Both the position numbers and the translations under genes were made by a program. The notes beneath the pieces are model-generated. The model ran no database searches and was not told the DNA's origin. It saw nothing but the letters and a program-made list of their open reading frames with translations. A stretch of DNA of 38,646 nucleotides. It comes from a virus. Shown here in pieces: positions 1 to 38,646 of this stretch; the first letter of the stretch is position 1; each line of letters opens with the position of its first letter. The DNA is taken from positions 1 through 38,646 of the IMG/VR virus record IMGVR_UViG_3300027609_000001; one strand, written 5' to 3'.

Positions 1-99
1 TTTTTGGAGAGTTATCAAGCTATCAAGAATCACATTTTGTGAGTTGAAGAAGCTTATAAATGGCGCATATATTTCGCGGACAAGGATCCCATTAACGTA
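1..99. repeat. Terminal direct repeat, identical to 38548..38646. This is the overlap of a circular or terminally redundant genome assembly; unique length 38,547 bp.
   Basis: Base-by-base comparison: tttttggagagttatcaagc...ggatcccattaacgta occurs at both contig ends (99 nt). A minus-strand reading frame is continuous and in phase across the junction. Confidence 0.95.
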
Positions 100-570
100 C
101 ACCTGAGGATTTGCCACAGGACTACCCAATATGGGACCATTGCTTGGATTAACAGCAGTAATATTTACCTTGAAGGTAAAGTCATAGTAGCCGGAAACAG
201 GAGCTGTGTAGCTTGTGCTTGGCGTCAGAATGATGTTGTTATTAGGATCATCAACAATATTGGTAAAATTAAGCTGAGTTCCCAAGGTATAGACAGCGTT
301 GCTGCCATAGTTAACGGTTGCGCGATAGGTAGTAGAAGGGATAAAGTTTGGAACATTCAAGTTAGTTATACATGCATTCGTGAAGTTGGCATTTGTTGAG
401 TTGAGCGAGTTGAAGTAGCCTTGCGCTCCCCACACTTGAGAAGCCTGTAACTTATTAGCTACACATGAGTTGTAAGCATTTGCTTGCTGAAACTGGCCAC
501 AATTTGCATTGAGACACGTTACGCACGCTTTGTCGAGATTGAGTTGATTTGATGGTAATGGACAATTCAT
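1..570 (-). CDS. N-terminal 190 codons of a wrap-around gene (570..1 joined to 38547..38314; 268 aa). Cys-rich fibre or receptor-binding protein with a C1q/TNF-like jelly-roll domain.
   Basis: ATG at 570-568 with AGGAG 7 nt upstream. Hand translation MNCPLPSNQLNLDKACVTCLNANCG... has no stop down to base 1, and codon phase at base 99 matches 38646. C1q-like signatures YTAPVSGYYDFTFKVNI and LITLQKGDLVTMAY. Confidence 0.75.
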   Translation of the reverse strand, partial: MNCPLPSNQLNLDKACVTCLNANCGQFQQANAYNSCVANKLQASQVWGAQGYFNSLNSTNANFTNACITNLNVPNFIPSTTYRATVNYGSNAVYTLGTQLNFTNIVDDPNNNIILTPSTSYTAPVSGYYDFTFKVNITAVNPSNGPILGSPVANPQVYVNGILVREIYAPFISFFNSQNVILDSLITLQK

Positions 571-2040: not shown

Positions 2041-4065
2041 TCATATGATCTGTTGTTCCTGTTGAAGTTTGCCTTCTTCCTTAATCTTCATCATATCGGC
2101 AACTCTAATAAGTGTCTCTATATGGCCAATGTCGATTCCCTCGAGTTCTTTTGCACCCCGTATCAGATCGAGAATTGCCATATAGTGATCTTTTTCAGCA
2201 GCAGCAGAACGCTCTTCTGCCAGCGCCTGGTTCTCTTTGACCCGACTAAGACGTTCGAGACCAAGACCTTGATCGGCGATGGAGCGAGATTTCGCCAATT
2301 CGGTGCGAGCTTCCTGCTCTTTAATCGCGGCTTGCATTTGCATCTGCTGCATCTGTTGCGCCTGTTGCTTCTGGGCGTTAATAGCTTCGAGCAACTTCTT
2401 CTTGTCCTGGATAATAGCAGCATCCAAAAGCGACTCATCAGGTATTGGAACCCCAAGTTCGCGCAATTGCAAGAGCTGAGCGAATTGCATCTGCTTCTGA
2501 GTCGTCGTATTAAAGCCTTCTTCAATGGCGCAGCCATATTTTCCAAACGCCTTCGAATAGAATTGAGGGGCAGGCTGTTGGCCCTCGAGGATCTTTTGCA
2601 CCTTGCCTGGTGTAAAATTAGCCTGAATCAATTGAATCATCAAGTTGCCCAAGAGCTTCTGTGCATGGTCGAGATTATCGAATAATCCCTGAAGGGTGGT
2701 AAGTCCAGCCCCTTGCCTCAACATAGAGAGAATTCCTGCCTTGTCATCGACCGCTGAGCCGAGCAACTCTTCATTGACGCCCGAAATCTCTTGGATTTCC
2801 TGACCCATGATCTTTGATAGCTCAATCATTGATGGTGGCACTTGAGGAGCCTGAATCTGTATAACATCGGTCATATTCGCTTCTTCTTTGAGAGCGAGTC
2901 CTCGGCCCTGTCCCGTCAGTTGCCAGACGTCTTTAGGATTTACCAGAGCGTTCTCTTTATAGATGAAGCCCGAGTTTATTTGAGACTCAAGAATATCGAG
3001 TTCTATAACTTTGCGACGATTATAGAGATACTGCGCATCACGCATACCACGAACAAGACCTTGAACGCGAGTTGGGAAATAGGGAAGCTCTGGAGCATAA
3101 TACGAGAAGACAGGTATAAAGGGGTAGAGATCTGTACCATTAGGATTATTCCCATCGTAGAATACTTTTCCTTGGATAACGATCGCTAATTTAACGGTAG
3201 GAATCTCTTGCTCTAAAAGTACGAGGTTAGGGTACGTCTGCATATAGAACTTGAGCTGGTCGTCATTGCCGCCTCCAGGCCATTCCATAATCTCACCCGT
3301 CTGAGGATCACAGATAACCTTCTGCTTACGGTAATCGCGATACCAGAATTCGTCATAACTCAACAGATTTTTCATGCCATAGTTATAAGATTCCGGCATG
3401 AATTGGAACTTGCCATCTCTACCAGTTCCTGAATCAAGCCCTTGAAGCCCAAGGATCTCGTCAGTTTGACCTGGCAGAAGTGATATTGCCTCACGCTTGG
3501 TCAGGAATGACCGCTTCCATATGGCACGACAATCGGAAAGATCAGTTTTTCGGAAGTAGGGATCGATAAGGAAGCTATTGTAGCTACAGTTATCAACTCG
3601 TATATTCCCCGAAACAGGATCAGTACGATAATCCATCCATACATGGAGCAAGTTCATACCCGTAACGAGCGATCCTTCAAATGCATTAGATATCGATTCA
3701 AGCACATTTTCATGCTGGTTGAGCCACATGAGAATCTTCGTGAACTGATCAGCAGTCTCTGCATCACCATTCTCGATGGGCGTCACAACAGTCGACTTGC
3801 GATTCTTGCGCTGATAGCCCGAGATCATATTGATTACTCGTCTGATTCTATTAAAAGTAAATTGCCTTCTGCGATTAGCAGGTAAATTCCCATAGAGATC
3901 ATTATAGACCGTCTGGTCAAACTGCCAGAATCGGGTGTCCGTATCTGCCTCTCCCCAAAATGACTGGTTAATCGTTATGCTTTCGGCGTAAAACGATTCC
4001 ATCAACGCGAGTATATTGCGATGAGGTTCGTCGTAATATTGGGGCCCAAGTTGGGGGAAGAGCAT
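2041..4065 (-). CDS. Portal protein with a long C-terminal coiled-coil extension
   Basis: 674 aa, next to the terminase. N-terminal pattern NRIRRVINMISGYQRKNRKSTVVTPIENGDAETADQFTKILMW is typical of podovirus portals. The last ~130 aa are Q/E/K-rich heptad-like sequence. GAGGA lies 8 nt upstream of ATG 4065. Confidence 0.75.
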   Translation of the reverse strand: MLFPQLGPQYYDEPHRNILALMESFYAESITINQSFWGEADTDTRFWQFDQTVYNDLYGNLPANRRRQFTFNRIRRVINMISGYQRKNRKSTVVTPIENGDAETADQFTKILMWLNQHENVLESISNAFEGSLVTGMNLLHVWMDYRTDPVSGNIRVDNCSYNSFLIDPYFRKTDLSDCRAIWKRSFLTKREAISLLPGQTDEILGLQGLDSGTGRDGKFQFMPESYNYGMKNLLSYDEFWYRDYRKQKVICDPQTGEIMEWPGGGNDDQLKFYMQTYPNLVLLEQEIPTVKLAIVIQGKVFYDGNNPNGTDLYPFIPVFSYYAPELPYFPTRVQGLVRGMRDAQYLYNRRKVIELDILESQINSGFIYKENALVNPKDVWQLTGQGRGLALKEEANMTDVIQIQAPQVPPSMIELSKIMGQEIQEISGVNEELLGSAVDDKAGILSMLRQGAGLTTLQGLFDNLDHAQKLLGNLMIQLIQANFTPGKVQKILEGQQPAPQFYSKAFGKYGCAIEEGFNTTTQKQMQFAQLLQLRELGVPIPDESLLDAAIIQDKKKLLEAINAQKQQAQQMQQMQMQAAIKEQEARTELAKSRSIADQGLGLERLSRVKENQALAEERSAAAEKDHYMAILDLIRGAKELEGIDIGHIETLIRVADMMKIKEEGKLQQEQQII

Positions 4066-4681: not shown

Positions 4682-6043
4682 TTAATAAGGTGGCAAATCA
4701 TCTCTAAATATCGAAGGCAAATTGGCATTATCTCCGTAGAGCGCGGCGTTTCGGCGTCGCTCAAAATCTTCAGGGCTTTCCCCTCTCCTCAAAAGGTGCA
4801 ACGATATGCACAGATATCGTAGGCAATCAGCCCAATGGGAGGACCAGTCATGCAGTGGCTCATTATGGTAAACCTTATTCTTATGGTCGTATTTTTGACG
4901 GTAGTTTTCGATGGCCTTGAGGAACGATGAGCAGCTGCTGTCTACCCAAATCTTAGCAAGCGAGCTCCGAACAGCTTCAATACCGTCCTCAAGCGTCACC
5001 TTGGGATGACCAGGAGCTATCGTGAACGTGATTCCGAGCTGACGAGCCTTCTCCCAGCGCGTTATACCTGATCCAAACTCTTTAACCCGAATGTCATGAG
5101 GAGCTATATGCTTGCCATAATCATATGGCTTCTGCTTGACCACCTTGATGTAGTGCTCTAATCCAACCTTAGAATTTTCATAGCTGTCAATTATTCTTAC
5201 AGTCTGTCCGATTATCTGTACAAATAGAATCGTAGTCGAATCGGATACTCCCAAGTCCCAAGCAGTATGTACTTCATGCGCAGGTTCCCATGGAACGTCG
5301 CCAATCTGGCCGCGCAGGCGCATACGATCAAGGTACTTGGTGTAATATGCACCTTCGACGCCCATCTCAAAGCTGCAATAATATTCTTGTTGTATTAAAT
5401 CATCGGACATTAACCCTTCTGACTTCTCCTTCTCGATGAAGGAGAGGGGAATATGATTAGTTTGCTCTACCGAGAGTTTGAGACAATACCATTCTGGATT
5501 TGTCCGGGCAATTTCATAGAGCGTAAAGAGGTGATTCTTTCCCCGTGGAGTCGATACAAATAGACTCCAACCATTATTAGCAACCAAAATAGGGCGAAGG
5601 AACTGATAAGCACGAGGATCTTGGATCGCATATTCACTGAATACTACTCCTTGTGGGTTAGTACCAACCAGTGAGTCAACGTTATCACTTCCCACGATTT
5701 GTATCAACGAGCCATTCTTGAGATTGATCTTCATCTCTTGGGAATTGGTGGAATCGATGATCTCCTTGGGAATATATTCAAGGAAGCGCTCGCCCGTGTT
5801 GGTAATTGCATCCCATATGACCATTTTGCCTTGTCGGTAGGTCGGGAATATGTACCAATAAGTGCCCACCTTCTTAAGCGCAGCGCGTATCATGACATTA
5901 AACGCACAGACGTCTTTACCAGCTCGACGGGGCAATATACACAAGACGCGCTTATAACCCTTGTTGAGTATCGCGTCCATGATAGGAATCTGATATTCAC
6001 GAGGCTTAAAGCGGTTGAGATGAACGGTCGTCATTACGGACAT
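4682..6043 (-). CDS. terL: Terminase large subunit
   Basis: Walker-A-like ILPRRAGKDV, Walker-B-like VVFSEYA, nuclease motifs TAWDLGVSDSTTI, HIAPHDI and HWADCLRYL. Start moved to ATG 6043 (GAGG 5 nt upstream); the ORF-track N-terminus MNILRILFTF... looks like a spurious extension. Confidence 0.9.
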   Translation of the reverse strand: MSVMTTVHLNRFKPREYQIPIMDAILNKGYKRVLCILPRRAGKDVCAFNVMIRAALKKVGTYWYIFPTYRQGKMVIWDAITNTGERFLEYIPKEIIDSTNSQEMKINLKNGSLIQIVGSDNVDSLVGTNPQGVVFSEYAIQDPRAYQFLRPILVANNGWSLFVSTPRGKNHLFTLYEIARTNPEWYCLKLSVEQTNHIPLSFIEKEKSEGLMSDDLIQQEYYCSFEMGVEGAYYTKYLDRMRLRGQIGDVPWEPAHEVHTAWDLGVSDSTTILFVQIIGQTVRIIDSYENSKVGLEHYIKVVKQKPYDYGKHIAPHDIRVKEFGSGITRWEKARQLGITFTIAPGHPKVTLEDGIEAVRSSLAKIWVDSSCSSFLKAIENYRQKYDHKNKVYHNEPLHDWSSHWADCLRYLCISLHLLRRGESPEDFERRRNAALYGDNANLPSIFRDDLPPY

Positions 6044-6124
6044 TAAGGCCTCTGTTTGAATACAGAGACCGTAAGCCCATAACGTGATGAAAGTAAATAG
6101 TATTCTAAGTATATTCATATATTA

Positions 6125-13372: not shown

Positions 13373-14734
13373 CTACGCGACCCTATAGCCTGATATCCAG
13401 GTAGATTGAGCTGATGGGTACGAACTGAACGCCGCAACTCCATTTACATGAGCATTAAGAGTTCCATTTGTATATCTTGTTACCTGAAATATCGCAACAT
13501 CTCCTGCTGTCATAGGGAACATGTTTGCTGCGAGAGCAGGAATTGTTTGAACGGCGCCCGACGTTAAAGCGCCGTTGTACAGGAAGTATGTATTTGCCGT
13601 TGCGGGATTTCCGGTAATAGTAATTTGAGCAGAGGGGAAAGCGGTGGAACTTGTAGATGGCTGTGTATTTGCAACCATGGAAAGGAAGTACAGTCCTGTT
13701 GCCGGAGCAGTGAATCTAAGCGGAGTTCCTGCCCCATTACCCGGAGTAACCGCACCACTATTATCGAAGAGCGCTGTCATGACGACTGTTGCGCCAAGCC
13801 CATAGAACGTTTGAGTTCCAAGAACGTTACTTGCTCGTGTCGCTTGGTAGTAGAAGAACGCGCAACCTGCTGCTGGAGATGTCCCTGTCGCTTCAAGATT
13901 GATATTATTGTTTGAGGGATAGGTAATTGCTACCGTTGCGCCCGTTGAGGTTAAGTTATTCCAAGCTGGAGTAGCGCCCCCCGCTATCAAAAGCTGGCCA
14001 TTTGTTCCATTGGTTATACCAACTTGAACTATTGCGCCCGCCGCCGAAGTGGTTATAGGAGCGTTCCCCTGTATTTTTACACTCGCGCCCGTCGCTCCAG
14101 GGCCGCTATTACCAGTAAGGGTTGTAATTCCACCGCCTCCGCCACCTGCAGCAGCGATCATTATGGAGTTAGGAGCATTTGTTATAGTAACATTTGCACC
14201 GGCGGTTAAATTTGTCCATGTAGGAGCGACTCCTGTTGATCCAATTAATAGCTGGCCATTCGTTCCATTGCTTGATGACAAAAGGCCCCCAGCACTTGCC
14301 TGAACGATGCCAAGACCAAGTGAGGTGTCAGTAACTGAATCTACAGTAATTGAAGGATTAAGGTTAACCATAACTGTGTCGCCAGATCCAGTGGTATTTG
14401 TATTAAGACCATCGCCAAAGACATTGAGTACTCCATCAACTGCAATAGCGACCTCACTGTCAGTTGGAAATTCGCTCGCGCCTCCGCCTCCGCCACTTCC
14501 GGGGAATATCTGAACCCACGTGGCAACGTTACCATCAAGATTAAGAAGAACCCAGTACTGAAGCCCTGAAAGCGTGGTGACTGCCCACTGGGTGCCAATG
14601 GGGAAGTTTGTATTGGTAGGAAGAGGGGCTTGGGTTGATTGGATAACCTGAGGAGCTGGATTGGCAGCGTTGACACCCATGTAGTTAAGGGGGTTTAGGC
14701 CATTGGGATAGTTTTGGTTACGGATTTGGGACAT
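13373..14734 (-). CDS. Tail fibre with a C1q/TNF-like C-terminal receptor-binding domain
   Basis: Repeated TNGTNGQLLI(G/A)..(A)P(T/A)W(T/N)NLT fibre repeats and GGGGG linkers. C-terminus LRFTAPATGLYFLSMV...FPMTAGDVAIFQV is a C1q-like signature. The start overlaps the stop of the upstream fibre (TAATG). Confidence 0.75.
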   Translation of the reverse strand: MSQIRNQNYPNGLNPLNYMGVNAANPAPQVIQSTQAPLPTNTNFPIGTQWAVTTLSGLQYWVLLNLDGNVATWVQIFPGSGGGGGASEFPTDSEVAIAVDGVLNVFGDGLNTNTTGSGDTVMVNLNPSITVDSVTDTSLGLGIVQASAGGLLSSSNGTNGQLLIGSTGVAPTWTNLTAGANVTITNAPNSIMIAAAGGGGGGITTLTGNSGPGATGASVKIQGNAPITTSAAGAIVQVGITNGTNGQLLIAGGATPAWNNLTSTGATVAITYPSNNNINLEATGTSPAAGCAFFYYQATRASNVLGTQTFYGLGATVVMTALFDNSGAVTPGNGAGTPLRFTAPATGLYFLSMVANTQPSTSSTAFPSAQITITGNPATANTYFLYNGALTSGAVQTIPALAANMFPMTAGDVAIFQVTRYTNGTLNAHVNGVAAFSSYPSAQSTWISGYRVA

Positions 14735-17427
14735 TATCGTAGCCTCGCATTAAGTTTTCCCTCGAGTTCATCGATCTTGAATTTGAGGCGCTGAATTTCA
14801 TTCAAGAGCAACGCGGGCAATTCATGGTACTTGACGGTCGCAGGCATTCCTTCGCTGTCGTAGGAGACTAAATAGGGAGCAACTTCTTCTACGTCCTCAG
14901 CGATGAGTCCATACGATTGGTTAAAGTCGCCTTTGAAGTTGAACTTGACCGGACGGAGCTTATAGATATCTCTACTTGCGACACCCATGTCATCGATGTT
15001 TTCCTTAAAGCGACGGGATGAGATAACTGTTCCGAGTTGTCCTGTCGCCGTATTAACGAGCACTGCAGCGGTACTCGCGATAGTTACGCCAGCGATGCCA
15101 GCTATGAAACAGGTATTTTGTTGGCCAGCACCCGAACCTTGTGTTCCGATTCGAATAACATTGGATTCGCCACCTGTTCCCTGGGCTGCGATAACAATGT
15201 TGCTCGACTCTGCTCCGGTATATCCGTCTCCAGCCGTTGATCCTATGGCGATATTATTAGCGCCGGTCGCCAGGTTTCCGAGGGCAACGAATCCTATGGA
15301 GGTATTATTACCACCTCCTGTTGTTAGTGAGCCTAGTGAATTGAGGCCAATAGATACGTTCGAGGAAGACGTGGTGAGAGATTGTAGAGAGCTCGATCCG
15401 ATACCTATGTTAAATGCTCCCGATGTTACTCCTGAGAGAGCTAAGGCGCCGAGGGCGTCATTATCGGTGCCTGATACGGTCGTGTGACCGGCCCCTTGTC
15501 CGACAAACATATTATTATTCGCAACGCTGCCATAGCAATTAAGTATCTTTTGAGTGCCTATTTGGATATAACCCGTTGTAGCAGTACTATCATCCATGGC
15601 GAGATATTGAAATTTGGCCGTCAGCGTAGAACCACCCGTATTGAGAAGCTCTAATCCAGAGCCGACACCGGTAAGAATGACTGCTCCAGTTAGGGCTGGG
15701 CCAGAATCTCCCGTAATAGAGGTTACTCCACCGCCTCCACTTCCACCGACTGTTCCGAGTTTTCCCGTGTTATCGATGAATACCGCCGAGTTGGTACCGC
15801 CAACGGTGGTGCCATAAATACCCGCAACATAGGCGGTATTTTGCTGGCCCGCGCTTGAACCCTGAGTTCCAATTCGAATCACATTGGATTCAGCAGCTGT
15901 TCCTGTATTTCCGATGACGATATTGCTCGACTCAGCGCCGGTATAATTCTGGGCAGCTTGATAGCCGAGTGAAATATTGAAAGATCCCGTCAGAAGATTT
16001 TCGAGTGACTGATATCCTACGGCAGAGTTGCCAGCTGCGGTAGTGGCATCAAACATCGATGCAACTCCTAGGGCAGTGTTAGTATCTCCTGAAGTCAAGC
16101 GGCTGAGCGTCCCTGACCCCATTGCGCAATTAAGGGTTCCACTCGTAATACCAACGAGTGATGTAGAGCCTATTGCAGTATTAGAAGAGCCGGATACAGC
16201 CGAATTTCCTGAGCTCTCTCCGACGAAAGTATTAATATTGGCGACCCCACCCCATGCCGAAAGCATGATAGAGCCACCAATCTGAATGTACCCAGTAGTT
16301 GTCGTCGTATCTGACATGACCAGCTTGGTAAATGTCGTGGTCAGCGTATTGCCGCCAGTTCCGGTGTAGAATGCTCCCGAAGTGCCGCCCGTAATTGATA
16401 TTGCTCCGACAAGCGCACCACCAGAGTTTCCCGTTATAGAAGTTACGCCGCCAGCTGCACCACCAACTGTTCCGAGATTTCCCGCATTATCAATGAATAC
16501 GGCAGAGTTCGTTCCGCCAACGGTAGAGCCGTAAATTCCCGAGATATTACAAGTGTCTTGCTCGCCAGCTCCGGACCCTTGGGTCCCGATAATGATTGCA
16601 TTACTTATTCCCGAAGAACCAGTATTACCAATAACAATATTGCTGGAATCAGCAGCGTCAAATAGACTCCCGGCATTATAGCCAAGCGCTACGTTATTTG
16701 TTCCTGATACAATGCCTGAAAGCGCGTTGGTTCCTACAGCAGTATTGTCGCCATCTCCGCCGCCCGTTGAAGTGAGCGCAGAGAGAGAATTCTGGCCTAC
16801 TGCAACGTTGTTATTGGAATCAGTGCCCGAGTTATAGGCATTTTGTCCCAGCGCCGTATTGAAATTTCCGGTATTAACGAATGGCGCCGCGTTATCCCCA
16901 AGAGCAGTATTGTCCGCTCCGGTCGTAATGCTGCTGAGCGTGCCAAACCCAATCCCCGTATTCCTGGTGCTCGCAATCGCTGCGTTTCCGGAAAGGTATC
17001 CAAGGAATGTGTTATGCCTAATAACACCGCCATAGAATGCGAGTATCGGTGTTCCGTTAACGCTGATGTAGCCCTGCGTCAAAGGATTATCGGTATTAGG
17101 AAGGGCTAAAAAGTTGAAGGATTCAGTAATAGTGATACCACTCGTCAGGAACTGAGCTCCAGAGGTGCCACCGGTAATATTGAGATCTCCACTGATGGGC
17201 ACAGATCCAGCAGCGTCGCCATCGATACTACTTACAAGGCTGCCCGTTAATTCGACAGTGAGCGTGTTAGTACCCGCATCCCCTACAACGGTTATATCAC
17301 CCGATCCCACCACATTAATGATGCCTGCTAGCGTAGGACCAACAGCACCACCTGAATTACCTTCGAGGAATTTCACACTACCCACACCACCACCTCCACC
17401 TGCTCCATATGATCCTGCTGAACTCAT
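14734..17427 (-). CDS. Tail fibre or spike with three tandem body modules and a C-terminal peptidase-S74 intramolecular chaperone domain
   Basis: The C-terminus GQLGTVISSRRFKENIDDM...YGLIAEDVEEVAPYLV...LLLNEIQRL is the endosialidase-type auto-cleaving chaperone (14737..15021). The body repeats with an exact 240-aa period (GVTSITG at aa 327 and 567; GYIQIG at aa 379 and 619). Confidence 0.85.
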   Translation of the reverse strand: MSSAGSYGAGGGGGVGSVKFLEGNSGGAVGPTLAGIINVVGSGDITVVGDAGTNTLTVELTGSLVSSIDGDAAGSVPISGDLNITGGTSGAQFLTSGITITESFNFLALPNTDNPLTQGYISVNGTPILAFYGGVIRHNTFLGYLSGNAAIASTRNTGIGFGTLSSITTGADNTALGDNAAPFVNTGNFNTALGQNAYNSGTDSNNNVAVGQNSLSALTSTGGGDGDNTAVGTNALSGIVSGTNNVALGYNAGSLFDAADSSNIVIGNTGSSGISNAIIIGTQGSGAGEQDTCNISGIYGSTVGGTNSAVFIDNAGNLGTVGGAAGGVTSITGNSGGALVGAISITGGTSGAFYTGTGGNTLTTTFTKLVMSDTTTTTGYIQIGGSIMLSAWGGVANINTFVGESSGNSAVSGSSNTAIGSTSLVGITSGTLNCAMGSGTLSRLTSGDTNTALGVASMFDATTAAGNSAVGYQSLENLLTGSFNISLGYQAAQNYTGAESSNIVIGNTGTAAESNVIRIGTQGSSAGQQNTAYVAGIYGTTVGGTNSAVFIDNTGKLGTVGGSGGGGVTSITGDSGPALTGAVILTGVGSGLELLNTGGSTLTAKFQYLAMDDSTATTGYIQIGTQKILNCYGSVANNNMFVGQGAGHTTVSGTDNDALGALALSGVTSGAFNIGIGSSSLQSLTTSSSNVSIGLNSLGSLTTGGGNNTSIGFVALGNLATGANNIAIGSTAGDGYTGAESSNIVIAAQGTGGESNVIRIGTQGSGAGQQNTCFIAGIAGVTIASTAAVLVNTATGQLGTVISSRRFKENIDDMGVASRDIYKLRPVKFNFKGDFNQSYGLIAEDVEEVAPYLVSYDSEGMPATVKYHELPALLLNEIQRLKFKIDELEGKLNARLR

Positions 17428-30251: not shown

Positions 30252-30659
30252 TTATGAAGCTAGGGTTGCGCGAAGGTTGATGACCCACTGATCATTAGTG
30301 ATCCGTGGAACCTCTGCGAACTTCCAGCCAACCGACGCATTAAGCGCCAATGGGCCGTCATAGATTGGTGGACGATAGATGAACGATGCGCTATAGCCAT
30401 CTTGATCTATACAGGCATAAGCCTCCATTCCTACGCAAAAGATGTTGTACACATCTGCGCCAAGAGATGAAGCATTAGGACTGATTGAGCCAATTGATGA
30501 AACCAAGAAGCGAAGGTTACCAATTGCGCCCCATTCTGAACGGAGTGCGTTCATAGGAGCAGGATATTGGTTCTTTTGGATGAAGCCGTTAACGTTATCC
30601 AAGTTTCCGATCAATTGGGTGCTGCACAGTGCGAAATAAGCATCTCGAACTGGTGCGGT
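30252..30659 (-). CDS. Major capsid protein (HK97-fold pattern), exon 5 of 5
   Basis: TAPVRDAYFALCSTQLIGNLDNVNGF...EWGAIGNLRFLVSS...ATLAS* is the C-terminal part of an HK97-type MCP. It begins right after the intron's terminal G. Confidence 0.8.
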   Translation of the reverse strand, partial: TAPVRDAYFALCSTQLIGNLDNVNGFIQKNQYPAPMNALRSEWGAIGNLRFLVSSIGSISPNASSLGADVYNIFCVGMEAYACIDQDGYSASFIYRPPIYDGPLALNASVGWKFAEVPRITNDQWVINLRATLAS

Positions 30660-30868
30660 CATTCTGTTACTTTTAGACCCCTCGCGAGGCGGGCTAACCT
30701 CTTCGGATCAGCCTCTGCATGTTTCCATGCAGTTCAGACTATCGCTTAGCCTTTTCGGGCCCCCACTCACTTAGTCGTTCACGGTGGCTTGCGCCTTCCG
30801 CCTTGTCACCGGCTCTTACACTACGGCTTCCAAGTCAATCAGAGTGGGTTTTAATTCAGCTATGCATA
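30660..30868 (-). mobile_element. Group I intron 4 (209 nt, no ORF)
   Basis: P1: exon AAUUCGGU| pairs with intron GCUGAAUU, with U.G at the cleavage site. P3: CCCACUC/GAGUGGG. R element GAACGACUAAG and S element GCGAUAGUCUG (P7). GAAA-capped hairpin UGCAUG-GAAA-CAUGCA. Ends ...AGUAACAGAAUG. Confidence 0.8.
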
Positions 30869-31057
30869 ACCGAATTTATCTTCGCCCTCAATATTGTCCA
30901 TTATAGTATATGCATTATTATTTAGTAATGCACGTACAACTGTGTCCACGTCTGAACGGGTGATTTCCGTTGGGTTATCACCATCTACGCCGCCGGTACA
31001 GTTAATGAACGAAGCGGTACCTGCCAGCATGTCGCGGGTAAGAACATCTTCAGTTTG
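30869..31057 (-). CDS. Major capsid protein, exon 4 of 5
   Basis: 63 codons: QTEDVLTRDMLAGTASFINCTGGVDGDNPTEITRSDVDTVVRALLNNNAYTIMDNIEGEDKFG. Confidence 0.75.
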
Positions 31058-31254
31058 CTAGTTGTTACTCCCTTTCGGGGGATAAGTCGTTTCCGCTTAT
31101 CTCAGAACCTTTCGTCGCTCTGTTCGGACTATCGCATCTCTTTCGAGTTCTCGGGTTTAGTCTCTCAGGCTGCCTTTACGCTTGCCCCTTGTCGCCTTAG
31201 CTTGCGCCTTAGGCTTCCAAGTCGATTACCGAGAATTTATACTCCGCCAATTTA
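31058..31254 (-). mobile_element. Group I intron 3 (197 nt, no ORF)
   Basis: P1: exon ACUCCGU| pairs with GCGGAGU (U.G at the site). P10: UUG with exon CAA. P3: UCUCGG/CCGAGA. R element GAGACUAAA and S element GCGAUAGUCCG. Ends ...AACAACUAG. Confidence 0.75.
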
Positions 31255-31312
31255 ACGGAGTGAAACGCCAAGACGAGCTGCGCACTCATTTAATACCGGA
31301 TCTTGATTCTGA
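31255..31312 (-). CDS. Major capsid protein, exon 3 of 5 (58 nt; the first nt completes a split Leu codon)
   Basis: (L)QNQDPVLNECAARLGVSLR. The boundaries are set by the P1 and P10 pairings of intron 2 and P1 of intron 3. Confidence 0.65.
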
Positions 31313-31458
31313 CTATTTGCAATTAACTGTTACTTTTGCGACTATATAATAATATTATTAGAATATAGCGGGGAAACCTCTTCGGATCTCCCTCTCACAG
31401 TTTCCTGTGAGTACAGACTATCGAATCTCTTATCGCTAAGAGCCAATGGGCTTAGTCG

Positions 31459-31487
31459 TTGCGGCTGCCCAACCATTATGTTATAAT
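31459..31487 (+). promoter_or_regulatory. Sigma70-like promoter for the antisense endonuclease gene
   Basis: TTGCGG (31459-64), a 17-nt spacer, then TATAAT (31482-87) with TGt immediately upstream (extended -10). Followed by AGGAG (31510-14) and GTG 31522. Confidence 0.5.
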
Positions 31488-31521
31488 GAGTACCAGTACA
31501 ATTCAGAATAGGAGATAGTAC

Positions 31522-32070
31522 GTGAATCGATATAAATATGAGCGCAAAGAGTATGCGGTGGCGCAAATTGCTTATCTCGCTGGAATTATCGATGGAGAAG
31601 GCTCTATTTATATCGGAAACTTTAGCTGCAATCCAAGGACCAAGGTCCCGTATTACCAAACTAACATCCAGGTTACTAACACCGATAAGGAATTGATCGA
31701 CTGGCTTTACGCTATCTTCGGAGGCCTGGTGTCGAAGCGAACTGCTCGACAGCATGCCGAAAATTCGCGCAAGCAAGCCTATATATGGACTGCGAGTGGT
31801 GAACGCGTGACGCATCTGTGTGAACTCATTTTGCCGTTCCTTATATGTAAGAAGAGGCAGTGTGAGATTATGATCAGAATGCGCAAGACATTCACTCCCT
31901 CCCATTGCGAAATTGGAAGACAAGGAATCAAGCCGCATAGCGCGGAATTGGTCCTGCTTCGTCAGTCGCTGATGGATGAGATGCGTAGTCTTCATATTAG
32001 AACTCACTCTTATAAGAATAATGGTCGCTTGCCTCGGGTTACCATGCCTCAGTTGCTAGAAGAGGTTTAG
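31522..32070 (+). CDS. LAGLIDADG-family homing endonuclease (single-motif, I-CreI-like size)
   Basis: IAYLAGIIDGEGSIYI is the LAGLIDADG motif. KELIDWLYAIFGG and LCELILPFLICKKRQCEIM match typical family blocks. 182 aa. The gene lies entirely inside intron 2, on the strand opposite to the intron and MCP. Confidence 0.85.
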   Translation: MNRYKYERKEYAVAQIAYLAGIIDGEGSIYIGNFSCNPRTKVPYYQTNIQVTNTDKELIDWLYAIFGGLVSKRTARQHAENSRKQAYIWTASGERVTHLCELILPFLICKKRQCEIMIRMRKTFTPSHCEIGRQGIKPHSAELVLLRQSLMDEMRSLHIRTHSYKNNGRLPRVTMPQLLEEV

Positions 32071-32118
32071 GCTTTCCCAGTAATCACCTTTGGTTTATTG
32101 ACGCCTCAGCAAAACCCA

Positions 32119-32321
32119 AGCGTCACTTGCTCATTAAGCTGAATGTATTGACCGTAAAACGAGATCTTCGCATCGATGTCCACAGCTGTGAGATTGGTCG
32201 CAGGAGGAGTTATTCCCGAGTTTCCAAGAGGCACAATTGCGGTTGGTAGCGGATTGTAGCGACGCATACGGAGGGTGGTCCCACCATTCCGTGGCATCTG
32301 CTTCAACATAGCTGGTATTTT
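32119..32321 (-). CDS. Major capsid protein, exon 2 of 5
   Basis: KIPAMLKQMPRNGGTTLRMRRYNPLPTAIVPLGNSGITPPATNLTAVDIDAKISFYGQYIQLNEQVT(L) carries the HK97-type MCP pattern P.N.G.T..FRRY..L......L.eG.tP....L.......A....YG. Confidence 0.8.
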
Positions 32322-32556
32322 CTATCTGTTACTTTTGTGACCATTCACATTGGATATTAACTCTCATTGAATGGCGGGGAGCTTCTTCGAGACTCCCTCT
32401 CGTTGTCGCCAGCGAGATCAGACTATCACATCCCTAATTTACTCAGGGTCGCATCGTTTAGTCGTTCACGGTCAATGCTATTGCAAAGTTCCGCCTTGTT
32501 GTCCTCGAGGGATTTCCAAGCCAATTAGACGCGATTTTAGATCCACAAAGTCGCTA
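32322..32556 (-). mobile_element. Group I intron 1 (235 nt, no ORF)
   Basis: P1: exon GAUCCAU| pairs with GUGGAUC (U.G at the site). P10: UUU with exon AAA. R element GAACGACUAAA and S element GUGAUAGUCUG. Ends ...AGUAACAGAUAG. Confidence 0.8.
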
Positions 32557-32649
32557 ATGGATCATGTTCGGCACAGGAACTGAGAGCAACTTGTAGGAGA
32601 AGCTCTGTTGCACAGGGGCCGGGAGACTAGATGTAGTCGTAATAGACAT
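32557..32649 (-). CDS. Major capsid protein, exon 1 of 5
   Basis: ATG 32649 with AGGA 7 nt upstream. MSITTTSSLPAPVQQSFSYKLLSVPVPNMIH, then an in-frame stop immediately inside the intron. Confidence 0.7.
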
Positions 32650-32719: not shown

Positions 32720-33541
32720 ATGCCTACAAAGTATGGTGGCGAGCCACTTTTACGCCAAATGAGGGTTGCGAAGACCTCTAAACGCAGTAAAATTGTAGTA
32801 GGAGACCATGGAGAATGTAAAGGAGTTAGGGATATTTGCGTGAAAAGGATTGCAGAAGATTTTAAACCTGGCCAGATATTGGGCAAATGGACTGTTATAA
32901 GATTCGAAAAGAATGGGGTCCACAGGGCTTGGAGATGCAAATGTATATGCGGAGCCGAACATTTAGTTAGAGAAGTTTATTTATGGGATGGAAGATCTAC
33001 AAAATGCAAAGAATGCGCAAAGCGAGATAAGAATTTTCACAGGTTTGACTTTAAATATGAGATAGGACAGAGATTTGGAACATTGGTCATTACTAAAAGG
33101 TTTAAGAGCAACGATGGCCCCAGGTCGAAGAATAAGTTCGAGTTAGTATGTGACTGCGGCGGAACTGTAACAGTTGATACAGCGCGTATAAACGCTGGAA
33201 AAGTAAAAATGTGCTATAAATGCACTCACAAGCTGGTTGGACAACCTCGACATGGTATGCATGAATCATCTACATATTCCACGTGGGAGCAGATGAAGCG
33301 CAGATGTTACGCTATTAATTATCCTCGATACAAAGACTATGGAGGAAGGGGAATAATCGTTTGCGAAAGATGGCATACATTCGACAACTTTTTGGCTGAC
33401 ATGGGAGAGAAGCCTAATGGGCTTCAGATCGATCGAATAGATAATGATGGACCATATTCTCCTGAAAATTGCCGATGGGTTACTCCTCAAGAGAATATGC
33501 AAAATCGCCGCAATAGCCCCAAGAATAAGCTTGTTACATAA
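32720..33541 (+). CDS. Free-standing HNH-type homing endonuclease
   Basis: Two G..(L/F)G.(W/L).V....(zinc-ribbon CxC...CxxC) repeats. C-terminus [62 protein letters not shown] is typical of phage HNH endonucleases. Opposite strand to all neighbouring genes. Confidence 0.8.
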
Positions 33542-38313: not shown

Positions 38314-38646
38314 CTAACAAATACTACATGCGTTAGGCGTGGTTGGCGCTGGCATGTTGGCGCAATCGATCGTTACCACAGGGCAAGGTGGACATGTTGC
38401 ACCAGTTCCGCCTTGAAGCTGCGACAACAGGATGATCTTGAAGAAGGAGTTACCGTCTTCAATTCCTGTGCCAACAATGTTAACAGTACCCTGAACAGGA
38501 GTTCCAGCTCCTGCGAGAACATTGTACGCCATGGTAACAAGATCTCCTTTTTGGAGAGTTATCAAGCTATCAAGAATCACATTTTGTGAGTTGAAGAAGC
38601 TTATAAATGGCGCATATATTTCGCGGACAAGGATCCCATTAACGTA
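38314..38646 (-). CDS. C-terminal part of the wrap-around C1q-like fibre gene (38548..38646 duplicates 1..99)
   Basis: The frame stays open through 38646 and continues in phase from base 99. C-terminus ...GGTGATCPPCPVVTIDCANMPAPTTPNACSIC*. Confidence 0.75.
   Translation of the reverse strand, partial: YVNGILVREIYAPFISFFNSQNVILDSLITLQKGDLVTMAYNVLAGAGTPVQGTVNIVGTGIEDGNSFFKIILLSQLQGGTGATCPPCPVVTIDCANMPAPTTPNACSIC
38548..38646. repeat. Terminal direct repeat, second copy of 1..99
   Basis: Identical 99 nt. Confidence 0.95.

What the first reader, a model, noticed from the sequence alone, without database searches (positions are those of the whole stretch)
30252..32649. Major capsid protein gene split into five exons by four group I introns
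No single ORF encodes the MCP. Five minus-strand segments (32649-32557, 32321-32119, 31312-31255, 31057-30869, 30659-30252) join in frame into a 316-aa HK97-type MCP: ...PNMIH|KIPAMLKQMPRNGGTTLRMRRYNPL...NEQVT(L)|QNQDPVLNECAARLGVSLR|QTEDVLTRDML...EGEDKFG|TAPVRDAYFAL.... Each exon is followed by an in-frame stop within about 1-4 codons inside the intervening sequence. All four intervening sequences (235, 806, 197 and 209 nt) show the following. (1) The last 7-8 exon nt pair with an internal guide 7-13 nt downstream, with U.G exactly at the junction: GAUCCAU/GUGGAUC, UGACGCU/GGCGUCA, ACUCCGU/GCGGAGU, AAUUCGGU/GCUGAAUU. (2) The canonical R (A/G)ACGACUAA or GAGACUAA and S GAUAGUC elements are present, and these pair as P7. 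(3) P3 pairings and GNRA-capped hairpins are present. (4) A terminal G precedes the next exon, with P10 pairings for introns 1 to 3. Group I introns are known in phage genes, usually one per gene. Four in one essential late structural gene of a 38.5-kb phage is exceptional, and it makes capsid production depend on ribozyme activity.
Basis: partly seen in the sequence, partly recalled or inferred. Interest (0 to 1): 0.9.

Follow-up and report, generated by a model that had tools for sequence, protein, structure and literature searches.

The report
Capsid gene split by four introns
The major capsid protein gene of a 38.5-kb soil phage is interrupted by four self-splicing group I introns, more than I found reported for any phage gene, and related metagenomic phages show that one compact intron family has repeatedly colonised this capsid gene.

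Summary

- **Joined protein.** Five minus-strand exons join in frame into a 316-aa N4-gp56-family (HK97-fold) capsid protein. It matches hundreds of uninterrupted 315-316-aa homologs (up to 92% identity) with no gap at any junction.
- **Introns in the window.** A covariance model built only from introns of other phages hits exactly four places in the genome, the four intervening sequences (173, 127, 107 and 73 bits).
- **RNA structure.** Across 140 distinct family members, 90.7% of predicted pairs form, against 36-50% in slid controls. 44 of 48 pairs show compensatory changes.
- **Splice-site rules.** Of 65 junctions defined by protein homology alone, 63 obey exon-U/intron-G. Guide pairing (P1) averages 6.9 bp against 3.0 in permuted controls.
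- **Rfam.** The generic model is sub-threshold (25.6 bits; cut-off 50).
- **Intron 2** carries an I-CreI-type LAGLIDADG homing endonuclease gene on the antisense strand, as do all 19 endonuclease-bearing relatives.

The "exceptional" claim needs nuance. Published phage genes top out at three group I introns. In metagenomes, however, this capsid family carries the intron family at about 30 sites, and two other genes were fully reconstructed with four introns each. About 90% of sampled family members sit in capsid genes. Splicing itself remains untested.

The parts
32557..32649 (-). MCP exon 1 (codons 1-31; ATG at 32649, AAGGA Shine-Dalgarno-like motif upstream)
   Evidence: It ends in ...AUGAUCCAU, whose last 7 nt pair with the intron 1 guide.
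32322..32556 (-). Group I intron 1 (235 nt, no ORF). Guide GUGGAUC at 32546-32540; P7 elements within 32463-32421; terminal G at 32322.
   Evidence: Independent CM R1: 127.4 bits, E 1e-29. Rfam RF00028: 19.2 bits. P1 7 bp, P10 3 bp. L001 and L124 carry an intron at the same site.
32119..32321 (-). MCP exon 2 (codons 32 to 98 plus 2 nt of codon 99)
31313..32118 (-). Group I intron 2 (806 nt). The core is split by an insertion of about 550 nt in the P6 loop, closed by the stem ACCAUUAU/AUAAUGGU. Guide GGCGUCA at 32105-32099; P7 elements within 31457-31416; terminal G at 31313.
   Evidence: CM R1 hits the 3' half: 72.8 bits, E 2e-16. The 5' core is conserved against the same-site intron in L191, with compensatory changes in P1, P4, P5a and P8. 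There is one A.A mismatch in P3. P1 7 bp, P10 4 bp.
31522..32070 (+). LAGLIDADG homing endonuclease gene (182 aa, single motif LAGIIDGEG) inside intron 2, antisense to the capsid gene. GTG start with AGGAG 7 nt upstream. Its 3' end overlaps the P4-P6 core on the other strand.
   Evidence: Pfam PF00961: 24.9 bits against a cut-off of 23.1. phrog_5046: E 3e-24. I-MsoI/I-CreI homologs in the PDB: E 2e-8. Homologs occur in 19 of 21 long introns of the family, all antisense.
31255..31312 (-). MCP exon 3 (58 nt; last nt of codon 99 through codon 118)
31058..31254 (-). Group I intron 3 (197 nt, no ORF; variant motifs GAGACUAA and GAGUAACAAC). Guide GCGGAGU at 31247-31241; P7 elements within 31162-31127; terminal G at 31058.
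   Evidence: CM R1: 107 bits, E 1e-24. P1 7 bp, P10 3 bp. Its closest relatives sit at other sites in other phages (L109 codon 79, L091 codon 181.33, L101 codon 27).
30869..31057 (-). MCP exon 4 (codons 119-181)
30660..30868 (-). Group I intron 4 (209 nt, no ORF). Guide GCUGAAUU at 30860-30853; P7 elements within 30776-30737; terminal G at 30660.
   Evidence: CM R1: 173.2 bits, E 1e-40. Rfam RF00028: 25.6 bits, E 1e-3. MFE folding gives P1, P3-P6, P8, P9, P9.1 and P9.2. Same-site introns occur in L131, L140, L142, L144, L181 and L189.
30252..30659 (-). MCP exon 5 (codons 182-316 plus stop)
   Evidence: Gene callers report it as a separate 136-aa ORF (P0146).
32792..32821 (-). Candidate sigma-70-like promoter upstream of the capsid gene (TTTACA-18-TACAAT). 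This is a consensus match only.
   Evidence: 9 sites found against 5.9 expected in shuffles, so this is weak evidence.
31323..31350 (+). Candidate promoter for the antisense endonuclease gene (TTAACT-16-TATAAT), about 170 nt upstream of its GTG, in the AT-rich P9.2 extension of intron 2. This is a consensus match only.
   Evidence: weak evidence.

Best explanation
The capsid gene is transcribed from the minus strand as one precursor that contains four compact group I ribozymes.

**Splicing (inferred).** Each intron folds into the P3-P9 core; there is no P2, and P9.1 and P9.2 are present. Each pairs its internal guide with the last 7-8 exon nucleotides to form P1, with U.G at the cleavage site. 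It then binds guanosine at P7 and carries out two transesterifications that end at its terminal G. P10 helps to align the next exon for introns 1-3. Four accurate splicing events give an mRNA for a 316-aa N4-gp56-type, HK97-fold major capsid protein. Capsid production therefore depends on all four ribozymes.

**Mobility (inferred).** The introns are selfish mobile elements. Intron 2 carries an I-CreI-type LAGLIDADG homing endonuclease, expressed from the opposite strand. It is predicted to cut intron-less alleles near codon 99 during co-infection and so drive gene conversion. The three ORF-less introns lie within 1.5 kb of that site. A free-standing HNH endonuclease gene sits directly upstream of the capsid gene. 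The ORF-less introns could therefore spread by co-conversion.

**Shown here:** exon structure, ribozyme family membership, conserved and covarying secondary structure, the splice-site rules, presence/absence polymorphism among relatives, and endonuclease homology.

**Inferred only:** actual self-splicing, endonuclease activity and target, and the route of mobility.
For: - **Exon structure.** The exons join in frame and match uninterrupted homologs without gaps.
- **Independent covariance model.** It gives four hits (173, 127, 107 and 73 bits) and none elsewhere in the genome.
- **Covariation.** 90.3% of cells pair against 38-46% in slid controls on MAFFT alignment A1. On 140 distinct sequences, 90.7% pair against 36-50%, 44 of 48 pairs show double changes, and 0 of 500 shuffles reach the observed score.
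- **P7.** Variants in L001 and L002 carry compensatory changes.
- **Splice-site rules.** Of 65 homology-defined junctions, 63 obey exon-U/intron-G, against about 10 expected by chance. P1 averages 6.9 bp against 3.0 in controls. P10 averages 3.3 bp against 0.8.
- **Presence/absence polymorphism.** L003 has no intron. L001 has one at the site of intron 1. L002 has one 18 nt upstream, with a matching guide. Of the 80 closest relatives, 74 are intron-less.
- **Intron 2** compared with its same-site relative in L191 shows compensatory changes at 58% identity.
- **Endonuclease.**
- **Insertion sites** lie in DNA more conserved than the gene background (p about 0.003).
- **Assemblies.** Independent assemblies are identical.
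Against: - There are no RNA or protein data. The exact joined protein is absent from a collection of 15 billion proteins. A spliced-junction 22-mer has no match in JGI metagenome contigs.
- Rfam RF00028 does not reach its gathering score for any of the four introns.
- Intron 2 has an A.A mismatch in P3 and a bulged P4, so it may splice poorly or need a cofactor.
- Intron 4 has no P10.
- With four introns and exons as short as 58 nt, exon skipping of the kind reported for Twort orf142 is possible.
Confidence: 0.9

Rival explanations
1. The introns are genuine group I introns, but at least one of them (most likely intron 2, or intron 4, which lacks P10) does not self-splice efficiently. It would depend on a protein cofactor, either a host RNA chaperone or a maturase-like activity of the LAGLIDADG protein. 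Capsid yield would then be gated by that factor.
For: Intron 2 has an A.A mismatch in P3, a bulged P4 and a 550-nt insertion in L6. Intron 4 has 0 bp of P10. From general knowledge, LAGLIDADG proteins can act as maturases in organellar group I introns.
Against: All core helices are present and covary. The endonuclease is encoded antisense, so it cannot be translated from the precursor. Compact phage group I introns generally self-splice in vitro (general knowledge).
Confidence: 0.2
2. The capsid gene is a pseudogene. The insertions would be dead intron relics that no longer splice. The genome would be a defective phage, or one that depends on a helper for its capsid.
For: No expression data exist. 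A relative (L124) carries a 35-nt intron remnant that would shift the reading frame, so decay does occur in this family.
Against: All four introns keep intact P1 guides matched to their own exons, P7, a terminal G and covarying helices. The exons carry no frameshift or stop and are 92% identical to intact homologs. The genome is complete, circularly closed and abundant enough to assemble twice. No second capsid gene was seen.
Confidence: 0.04
3. The interruptions are not group I introns but another kind of element: inteins, group II introns, translational bypass segments, or insertion sequences in a gene expressed as separate polypeptides.
For: Rfam's group I model is below threshold.
Against: - In-frame stops lie 0-4 codons into each insert, which excludes inteins.
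- There is no reverse transcriptase and no group II match in Rfam.
- The inserts are 197-806 nt, far longer than known bypass gaps.
- Exons of 31 and 19 codons lack start codons.
- The family-specific model and the covariation fit the group I topology, including the P3/P7 pseudoknot.
Confidence: 0.01
4. The four-intron arrangement is an assembly chimera that joins reads from several phage variants, each with fewer introns.
For: The source is a metagenome. Intron copies share conserved cores that could mislead an assembler. L124 may contain such a collapse.
Against: Two assemblers give sequence 100% identical over 3.7 kb. The four introns are only 64-74% identical to each other. The contig closes on itself. 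Other contigs (L126, L131) also reconstruct cleanly with four introns.
Confidence: 0.01

Closest known systems
Staphylococcus phage Twort orf142: three group I introns in one gene (Landthaler & Shub 1999, as cited in PMC11878797)
   Same: Several compact self-splicing group I introns sit in a single phage gene. The core motifs are similar (ACGACUA / AUAGUCUGAAC / a GAAA-capped P9), though that resemblance is from my memory of the Twort ribozyme.
   Different: The window has four introns rather than three, in the major capsid gene of a 38.5-kb podovirus-like genome. The family model scores Twort's introns at only 24.9 bits or less. The window introns lack P2 and the P7.1/P7.2 helices of IA2 introns, so they are distant relatives at best.
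Mycobacteriophage LittleE capsid-gene intron (Pope et al. 2013, PMC3706429)
   Same: A group I-like intron in a major capsid gene, with exon-terminal U, intron-terminal G and a LAGLIDADG ORF on the bottom (antisense) strand. Splicing was shown by RT-PCR.
   Different: LittleE has a single intron, in a 110-kb siphovirus of a high-GC host. No sequence relationship was tested here.
Intron-rich phages: Jug jumbo phages (PMC12880540) and Bastillevirinae (PMC11878797)
   Same: Many short group I introns (about 206 nt on average in Jug phages) interrupt essential genes. terL and DNA polymerase genes are split into 2-3 (Jug) or up to 4 pieces. Jug splicing was confirmed by metatranscriptomes.
   Different: Those genomes are 130-400 kb, and the targets are mainly terL, nrdD and DNA polymerase. 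At most three introns per gene are reported. Here a 38.5-kb genome concentrates all four of its introns in the capsid gene.
Free-standing homing endonuclease acting with an ORF-less intron ('collaborative homing', cyanophage psbA; T4 mobE trans-homing, PMC2790892)
   Same: The window has three ORF-less introns close to a free-standing HNH endonuclease gene (32720-33541) and to an endonuclease-bearing intron.
   Different: This is purely an inference. No target site or cleavage was tested. The cyanophage case is recalled from memory.
Rfam RF00028 (Intron_gpI)
   Same: The overall P1-P9 topology aligns full-length for introns 1, 3 and 4.
   Different: Scores are 13-25.6 bits, below the gathering cut-off of 50. 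Annotation pipelines that rely on Rfam therefore miss these introns.

Membership tests
Group I intron | P1 helix between the 5' exon end and an internal guide sequence, with a U.G pair at the cleavage site | tested here: met
   The window has 7, 7, 7 and 8 bp starting at U.G. Across 62 junctions at 27 sites the mean is 6.9 bp, against 3.0 in permuted controls.
Group I intron | Terminal guanosine (omega-G) as the last intron nucleotide | tested here: met
   All four window introns end in G. Of 65 homology-defined junctions, 63 are compatible with U...G.
Group I intron | Conserved core helices P3-P8, including the P3/P7 pseudoknot, supported by covariation | tested here: met
   90-91% of cells pair against 36-50% in slid controls, and 44 of 48 pairs show double changes. 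P3 shows double changes at 7 of 7 pairs. P7 has compensatory variants.
Group I intron | Score at or above the Rfam RF00028 gathering threshold | tested here: not met
   The best score is 25.6 bits against a cut-off of 50. I read this as limited sensitivity of one generic model, because the structural criteria above are met.
Group I intron | Guanosine-dependent self-splicing with exon ligation | not testable with these tools
   This needs in vitro transcription and splicing, or RNA-seq.
Group I subgroup IA2 (Twort / T4-like phage introns) | P2 and the extra P7.1/P7.2 helices, and sequence relatedness to Twort introns | tested here: not met
   There is no P2 between P1 and P3. P3' is followed directly by P8. 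Family model R1 scores Twort introns at 24.9 bits or less. Subgroup models (GISSD and the Selles Vidal CMs) are not available here, so the subgroup stays unassigned.
LAGLIDADG homing endonuclease (I-CreI-type homodimer) | A LAGLIDADG motif with a conserved acidic residue, a single-domain size of about 160-180 aa, and homology to characterised enzymes | tested here: met
   PF00961: 24.9 bits against a cut-off of 23.1. The motif LAGIIDGEG aligns to the I-MsoI motif, E 2e-8. The protein is 182 aa. Cleavage activity and target were not tested.
N4-gp56 family major capsid protein (HK97 fold) | Full-length match above the curated cut-off of TIGR04387 | tested here: met
   149 bits against a cut-off of 60. 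Residues 4-310 align to profile positions 1-320 of 324 in one stretch.
N4-gp56 family major capsid protein (HK97 fold) | HK97-like three-dimensional fold | tested here: met
   The test used the 92%-identical homolog P0001: AF2 pLDDT 91.8 and pTM 0.86. Foldseek matches the N4 capsid at TM 0.77, E 1.6e-19, and HK97 Head II (2ft1) at E 3e-11.

The most novel reading that the evidence does not exclude
This window is one instance of an undescribed, widespread phenomenon. A single lineage of compact, P2-less group I introns has specialised on phage major capsid genes.

- **Hallmarks.** The lineage has a conserved 3' AAGUAACAG element. When it carries an endonuclease, this is an antisense LAGLIDADG gene in the P6 loop.
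- **Target bias.** About 90% of 105 sampled copies lie in capsid genes of at least five capsid families.
- **Density.** In the N4-gp56-like capsid gene of an abundant, uncultured soil and freshwater podophage lineage, the introns occupy about 30 different sites. Repeated site-hopping has built genes with four or more introns, the highest group I intron density known for a phage protein-coding gene.
- **Proposed function.** Such loads may act in competition between co-infecting phages, through endonuclease-driven exclusion of intron-less capsid alleles.
Probability: 0.6. Interest if true: 0.78.

Novelty: new member of a known kind. Interest (0 to 1): 0.64.

Why it matters
1. **Published upper bound.** It raises the number of group I introns documented in one phage gene from three to four. 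The gene is the most highly expressed essential late gene of a small genome, so four ribozymes must all work fast and accurately for the phage to make any capsid. That makes it a natural system for studying the folding and order of splicing of tandem ribozymes on one transcript, and exon skipping.

2. **Annotation.** These introns fall below Rfam's threshold. Gene callers therefore report exon-sized fragments.
   - The window's capsid gene appears as a 136-aa ORF.
   - GenBank MW202674.1 has a split 'P22 coat protein'.
   - About half of the 150 best cluster representatives of this capsid family are fragments.

   The capsid protein is the main marker used to detect and classify phages in viromes. 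Unrecognised introns therefore distort such surveys.

3. **Useful molecules.** The family offers dozens of natural 190-235-nt ribozymes with different guide sequences. It also offers a set of related LAGLIDADG endonucleases with presumably different targets. Both are useful raw material for RNA and genome engineering.

4. **Evolution.** The strong bias toward capsid genes and the many insertion sites give a tractable data set for asking how group I introns move to new sites.

Tried and rejected
- **Rfam at gathering threshold:** no hit. Permissive mode gives only weak RF00028 matches.
- **Near-identical phage records:** none. No cultured relative is close; TerL is at most 42% identical.
- **First junction-inference script:** it used a comparison window that shifted with the candidate junction, and it misplaced synonymous junctions. 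It was replaced.
- **Strict exon joining for non-capsid loci:** it resolved only 7 of 75. It was replaced by clustering of downstream exon peptides.
- **First spliced-alignment DP attempts:** the first was abandoned as too heavy and the next timed out. A vectorised version worked.
- **Five-intron genes (L100, L124):** model hits suggested five, but this was not verified. L124 resolves to four complete introns plus a 35-nt remnant. L100 stayed unresolved. I claim only four-intron relatives (L126, L131).
- **Twort/IA2 kinship recalled from memory:** tested and found weak, 24.9 bits or less.
- **Early in-frame stop as a family trait:** rejected; the family median is 18 codons.
- **P9.0 pairing (UCUG/CAGA) for the conserved 3' element:** intron 3 does not support it, so the idea was dropped.
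- **Exact joined protein:** not in the 15-billion-protein collection.
- **Spliced junction 4 22-mer:** not in JGI metagenome contigs.
- **Sequence search of the capsid protein against the PDB:** only chance hits. Fold comparison was needed.


Full report
**1. The observation**

They translate without a stop into a 316-aa protein. No single ORF covers the gene. ORF listing shows only fragments, such as a 136-aa ORF for the last exon.

I wrote a spliced protein-to-DNA aligner that knows nothing about RNA structure. It allows introns in any codon phase and requires only an exon-terminal T, an intron-terminal G and a length of 150-1400 nt.

| Intron | Window coordinates (minus strand) | Length (nt) |
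|---|---|---|
| 1 | 32556-32322 | 235 |
| 2 | 32118-31313 | 806 |
| 3 | 31254-31058 | 197 |
| 4 | 30868-30660 | 209 |

The motif combination GACUAA...GAUAGUC...AGUAACA occurs only four times in the window. All four are on the minus strand, inside these sequences.

The window is a circularly closed contig: its first ~100 nt recur at 38547-38646. The genome is therefore about 38.5 kb, with 46% G+C and no tRNA genes. It comes from a soil metagenome (ERR1700678, PRJEB8420). Two independent assemblies are 100% identical to the window across the whole gene region. An assembly chimera is therefore very unlikely.

**2. The joined protein is a complete, colinear major capsid protein**

- It matches the curated equivalog TIGR04387 (N4-gp56 family major capsid protein) at 149 bits, against a cut-off of 60. 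The match is one stretch, residues 4-310 on profile positions 1-320 of 324.
- It matches PHROG 1357 'major head protein' at E 8.6e-32 and Pfam PF25209.
- A search of 5.8 billion proteins found 2561 relatives. The best are uninterrupted proteins of 315-316 aa at 85-92% identity and 100% coverage.
- Their sequences run straight through all four junctions without any gap or insertion: NMIH|KIPAM, EQVTL|QNQDP, GVSLR|QTED and DKFG|TAPVR.
- The 92%-identical homolog P0001 gives a confident AlphaFold model (pLDDT 91.8). The model matches the phage N4 capsid protein (TM 0.77, E 1.6e-19) and HK97 Head II (E 3e-11). The 'HK97-type' label is therefore supported.
- The junctions map to the N-arm, just after the E-loop, inside the spine helix, and to a loop before strand 188-194. 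They do not follow domain boundaries.

**3. The intervening sequences are group I introns**

Rfam's generic model RF00028 does not reach its gathering score of 50 bits. In permissive mode it gives 25.6, 19.2, 13.7 and 13.0 bits for introns 4, 1, 2 and 3. The stronger evidence comes from comparative analysis.

*Independent covariance model.* I built model R1 from 51 of these foreign introns, with no window sequence. With filters off, it finds exactly four matches in the window and nothing else at E ≤ 1:

| Intron | Bits | E-value | Note |
|---|---|---|---|
| 4 | 173.2 | 1e-40 | |
| 1 | 127.4 | 1e-29 | |
| 3 | 107.0 | 1e-24 | |
| 2 | 72.8 | 2e-16 | 3' half only |

*Folding.* Unconstrained MFE folding of introns 1, 3 and 4 gives P1, P3, P4, P5, P6, P8, P9, P9.1 and P9.2.

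*Covariation.*
- On a MAFFT alignment of 64 non-redundant introns, the structure derived from intron 4 has 90.3% of cells paired, against 38-46% when partners are slid. The covariation score is 0.472 against 0.06-0.10. All seven P3 pairs show compensatory double changes.
- On a model-based alignment of 140 distinct sequences, 90.7% of cells pair against 36-50%. 44 of 48 pairs show changes on both sides, and 0 of 500 shuffles reach the observed value.
- My search pattern had frozen P7. P7 nevertheless shows compensatory variants in close relatives: GACU/AGUC in the window becomes G(u)AGC/GCUC in L001 and L002.

**4. Splice-site rules, tested independently of RNA models**

I defined junctions in relatives purely by protein homology.
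- Of 65 confidently resolved junctions, 63 admit an exon-terminal U and an intron-terminal G. About 10 would be expected by chance.
- At these junctions the guide pairs with the exon end over a mean of 6.9 contiguous bp, starting at U.G. The mean is 3.0 bp when exons and introns from different sites are permuted.
- P10 pairing averages 3.3 bp against 0.8 in controls.
- Early in-frame stops (0, 4, 0 and 2 codons after the 5' splice site) are correct for the window. They are not a family trait; the family median is 18 codons.

**5. Presence/absence polymorphism**

- Contig L003, which encodes P0001, has no intron.
- L001 (98% protein identity) has one intron, at exactly the site of the window's intron 1.
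- L002 (97%) has one intron 18 nt upstream, with a guide (GGGCAC) matched to its own exon end (GUGCCU).
- Of the 80 closest IMG/VR relatives, 74 are intron-less and 6 carry a single intron.
- The window's four introns are only 64-74% identical to one another. Each is closer (76-83%) to introns in other phages, often at different codon positions. They were therefore acquired independently from a diverse pool that moves between sites.
- Insertion sites lie in slightly more conserved DNA than the gene background (p about 0.003). This is what homing predicts.

**6. Intron 2 and its endonuclease**

Intron 2 has a core like intron 3, plus an insertion of about 550 nt in the P6 loop. The insertion is closed by the stem ACCAUUAU/AUAAUGGU.

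The insertion holds a 182-aa ORF on the plus strand (31522-32070; GTG start with AGGAG 7 nt upstream). The ORF is therefore antisense to the capsid gene. It is a single-motif LAGLIDADG protein:
- PF00961 above its cut-off;
- phrog_5046 at E 3e-24;
- homology to I-MsoI and I-CreI, with the LAGIIDGEG motif aligned.

Among 21 long introns in this capsid family, 19 carry a homolog, and all 19 are antisense. The mycobacteriophage LittleE capsid intron is a published precedent for a bottom-strand LAGLIDADG ORF (PMC3706429).

Intron 2's 5' core could not be matched by the model because of the insertion. Comparison with the same-site intron of L191 (58% identity) shows compensatory changes in P1, P4, P5a and P8. 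It also shows a conserved receptor-like CCUAAA...CAUGG motif. The window copy has one A.A mismatch in P3.

**7. How exceptional is it?**

In the searchable literature, the maximum I found is three group I introns in one phage gene:
- Twort orf142 (Landthaler & Shub 1999, cited in PMC11878797);
- Bastillevirinae DNA polymerase and terL genes (PMC11878797);
- Jug jumbo phages, where terL is split into 2-3 pieces (PMC12880540).

Capsid-gene introns are known only singly (LittleE, Tuc2009; PMC3706429). No paper mentioned four introns in a capsid gene.

The window is not unique in nature, however.
- The model finds 157 introns in 100 IMG/VR loci.
- The spliced aligner fully reconstructs two other four-intron capsid genes. 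L126 has introns at codons 52.33, 79, 96.67 and 169.67. L131 has them at 124, 172, 181 and 305. Both give stop-free products of 315-316 aa.
- L124 has four complete introns plus a 35-nt remnant.
- Altogether about 30 distinct insertion sites are used in this one gene family.

**8. Target bias of the intron family**

I classified 105 downstream exons:

| Target gene | Count |
|---|---|
| This capsid family | 68 |
| Second capsid family (phrog_283, P22-coat-like) | 24 |
| Other major-head families | 4 |
| Portal genes | 5 |
| Ribonucleotide reductase genes | 4 |
| Tape-measure gene | 1 |

These introns go unrecognised in databases.
- GenBank MW202674.1 annotates a split 'P22 coat protein' as two CDSs, with a spurious ORF inside the intron.
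- 80 of the 150 best cluster representatives of this capsid family are fragments. Their ends cluster at intron sites: 67 of 99 internal boundaries lie within 2.5 residues of a mapped site, against 41% by chance.

**9. Mechanism and limits**

The best-supported mechanism is standard group I self-splicing of four tandem ribozymes from the late capsid transcript. Mobility would be driven by the intron 2 endonuclease and possibly by the adjacent free-standing HNH endonuclease (32720-33541; phrog_374 at E 6e-61). That HNH gene is sporadic among relatives (7 of 83 loci).

None of this has been observed at the RNA or protein level.
- The exact joined protein is absent from public collections.
- A spliced-junction search found nothing.
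- The subgroup is unassigned. The introns lack P2 and P7.1/P7.2, and they are only distantly related to Twort's IA2 introns (24.9 bits or less).

**Verdict**

The kind of element is known. Its density in one capsid gene exceeds published cases. The family-level pattern (a capsid-specialised, site-hopping intron lineage with antisense endonucleases) appears to be undescribed.

Noticed in passing
window 32720-33541 (+): A free-standing HNH homing endonuclease gene (273 aa; phrog_374 at E 6e-61) lies immediately upstream of the capsid gene and antisense to it. Homologs occur at the same position in only 7 of 83 related loci (for example L001 and L017), as expected for a mobile element. It could mobilise the ORF-less introns by co-conversion.
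   Followed up: partly
IMG/VR loci L084-L203: The intron family (ACGACUAA...GAUAGUC...AAGUAACAG) is overwhelmingly found in major capsid genes. Of 105 classifiable copies, about 96 are in capsid genes of at least five families. The rest are in portal, ribonucleotide reductase and tape-measure genes.
   Followed up: partly
L124:6226-6260: A 35-nt insert at capsid codon 88 keeps only a P1-like hairpin (UACGGU/GCCGUA). It is either a deleted intron remnant, which would shift the reading frame, or an assembly collapse between intron copies.
   Followed up: partly
L204 (GenBank MW202674.1 16569-18084): A deposited 36.6-kb podovirus genome annotates a 'P22 coat protein' as two CDSs, with a 'hypothetical protein' called inside a 182-bit member of this intron family. 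The intron is unrecognised in the record.
   Followed up: yes
L205:2497-2722 (Nitratidesulfovibrio/Desulfovibrio phage 7757, PV062637.1 / OR395405.1): This is the only cultured phage found with a clear member of the intron family (129 bits). The record is unannotated, so the interrupted gene was not identified.
   Followed up: no
Representative protein clusters P0151-P0300: 80 of the 150 best 50%-identity cluster representatives of this capsid family are fragments. Their ends recur at intron sites, with peaks at residues 104, 144, 181 and 222. Public protein databases therefore hold many exon-sized capsid pieces.
   Followed up: partly
62 family introns (loci L084-L203 and the window): Across the family, the exon reading frame stays open a median of 18 codons into the intron (peak at 17-20), against 5 codons in the other two frames. 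The window's introns are the exception. This is unexplained.
   Followed up: no
All family introns, e.g. window 32334-32326, 31335-31327, 30672-30664: A nearly invariant AAGUAACAG element sits 4-15 nt before the terminal G. No pairing partner could be identified, and a P9.0 pairing with J7/9 is not supported by intron 3.
   Followed up: partly
L124:5790-6171: A 382-nt intron at capsid codon 70 gives two adjacent model hits. It uses a third P7 variant (G(u)AGU/ACUC). It has A/T-rich insertions in P6 and near P8 but no endonuclease ORF.
   Followed up: no
window 1-100 and 38547-38646: The terminal ~100-nt overlap shows that the window is a circularly closed contig, a complete genome of about 38.5 kb. 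It encodes a P22-like portal (2041-4065), TerL (4682-6118) and a tail fibre with a Peptidase_S74 chaperone domain (14734-17427). No cultured relative is close; TerL is at most 42% identical.
   Followed up: partly
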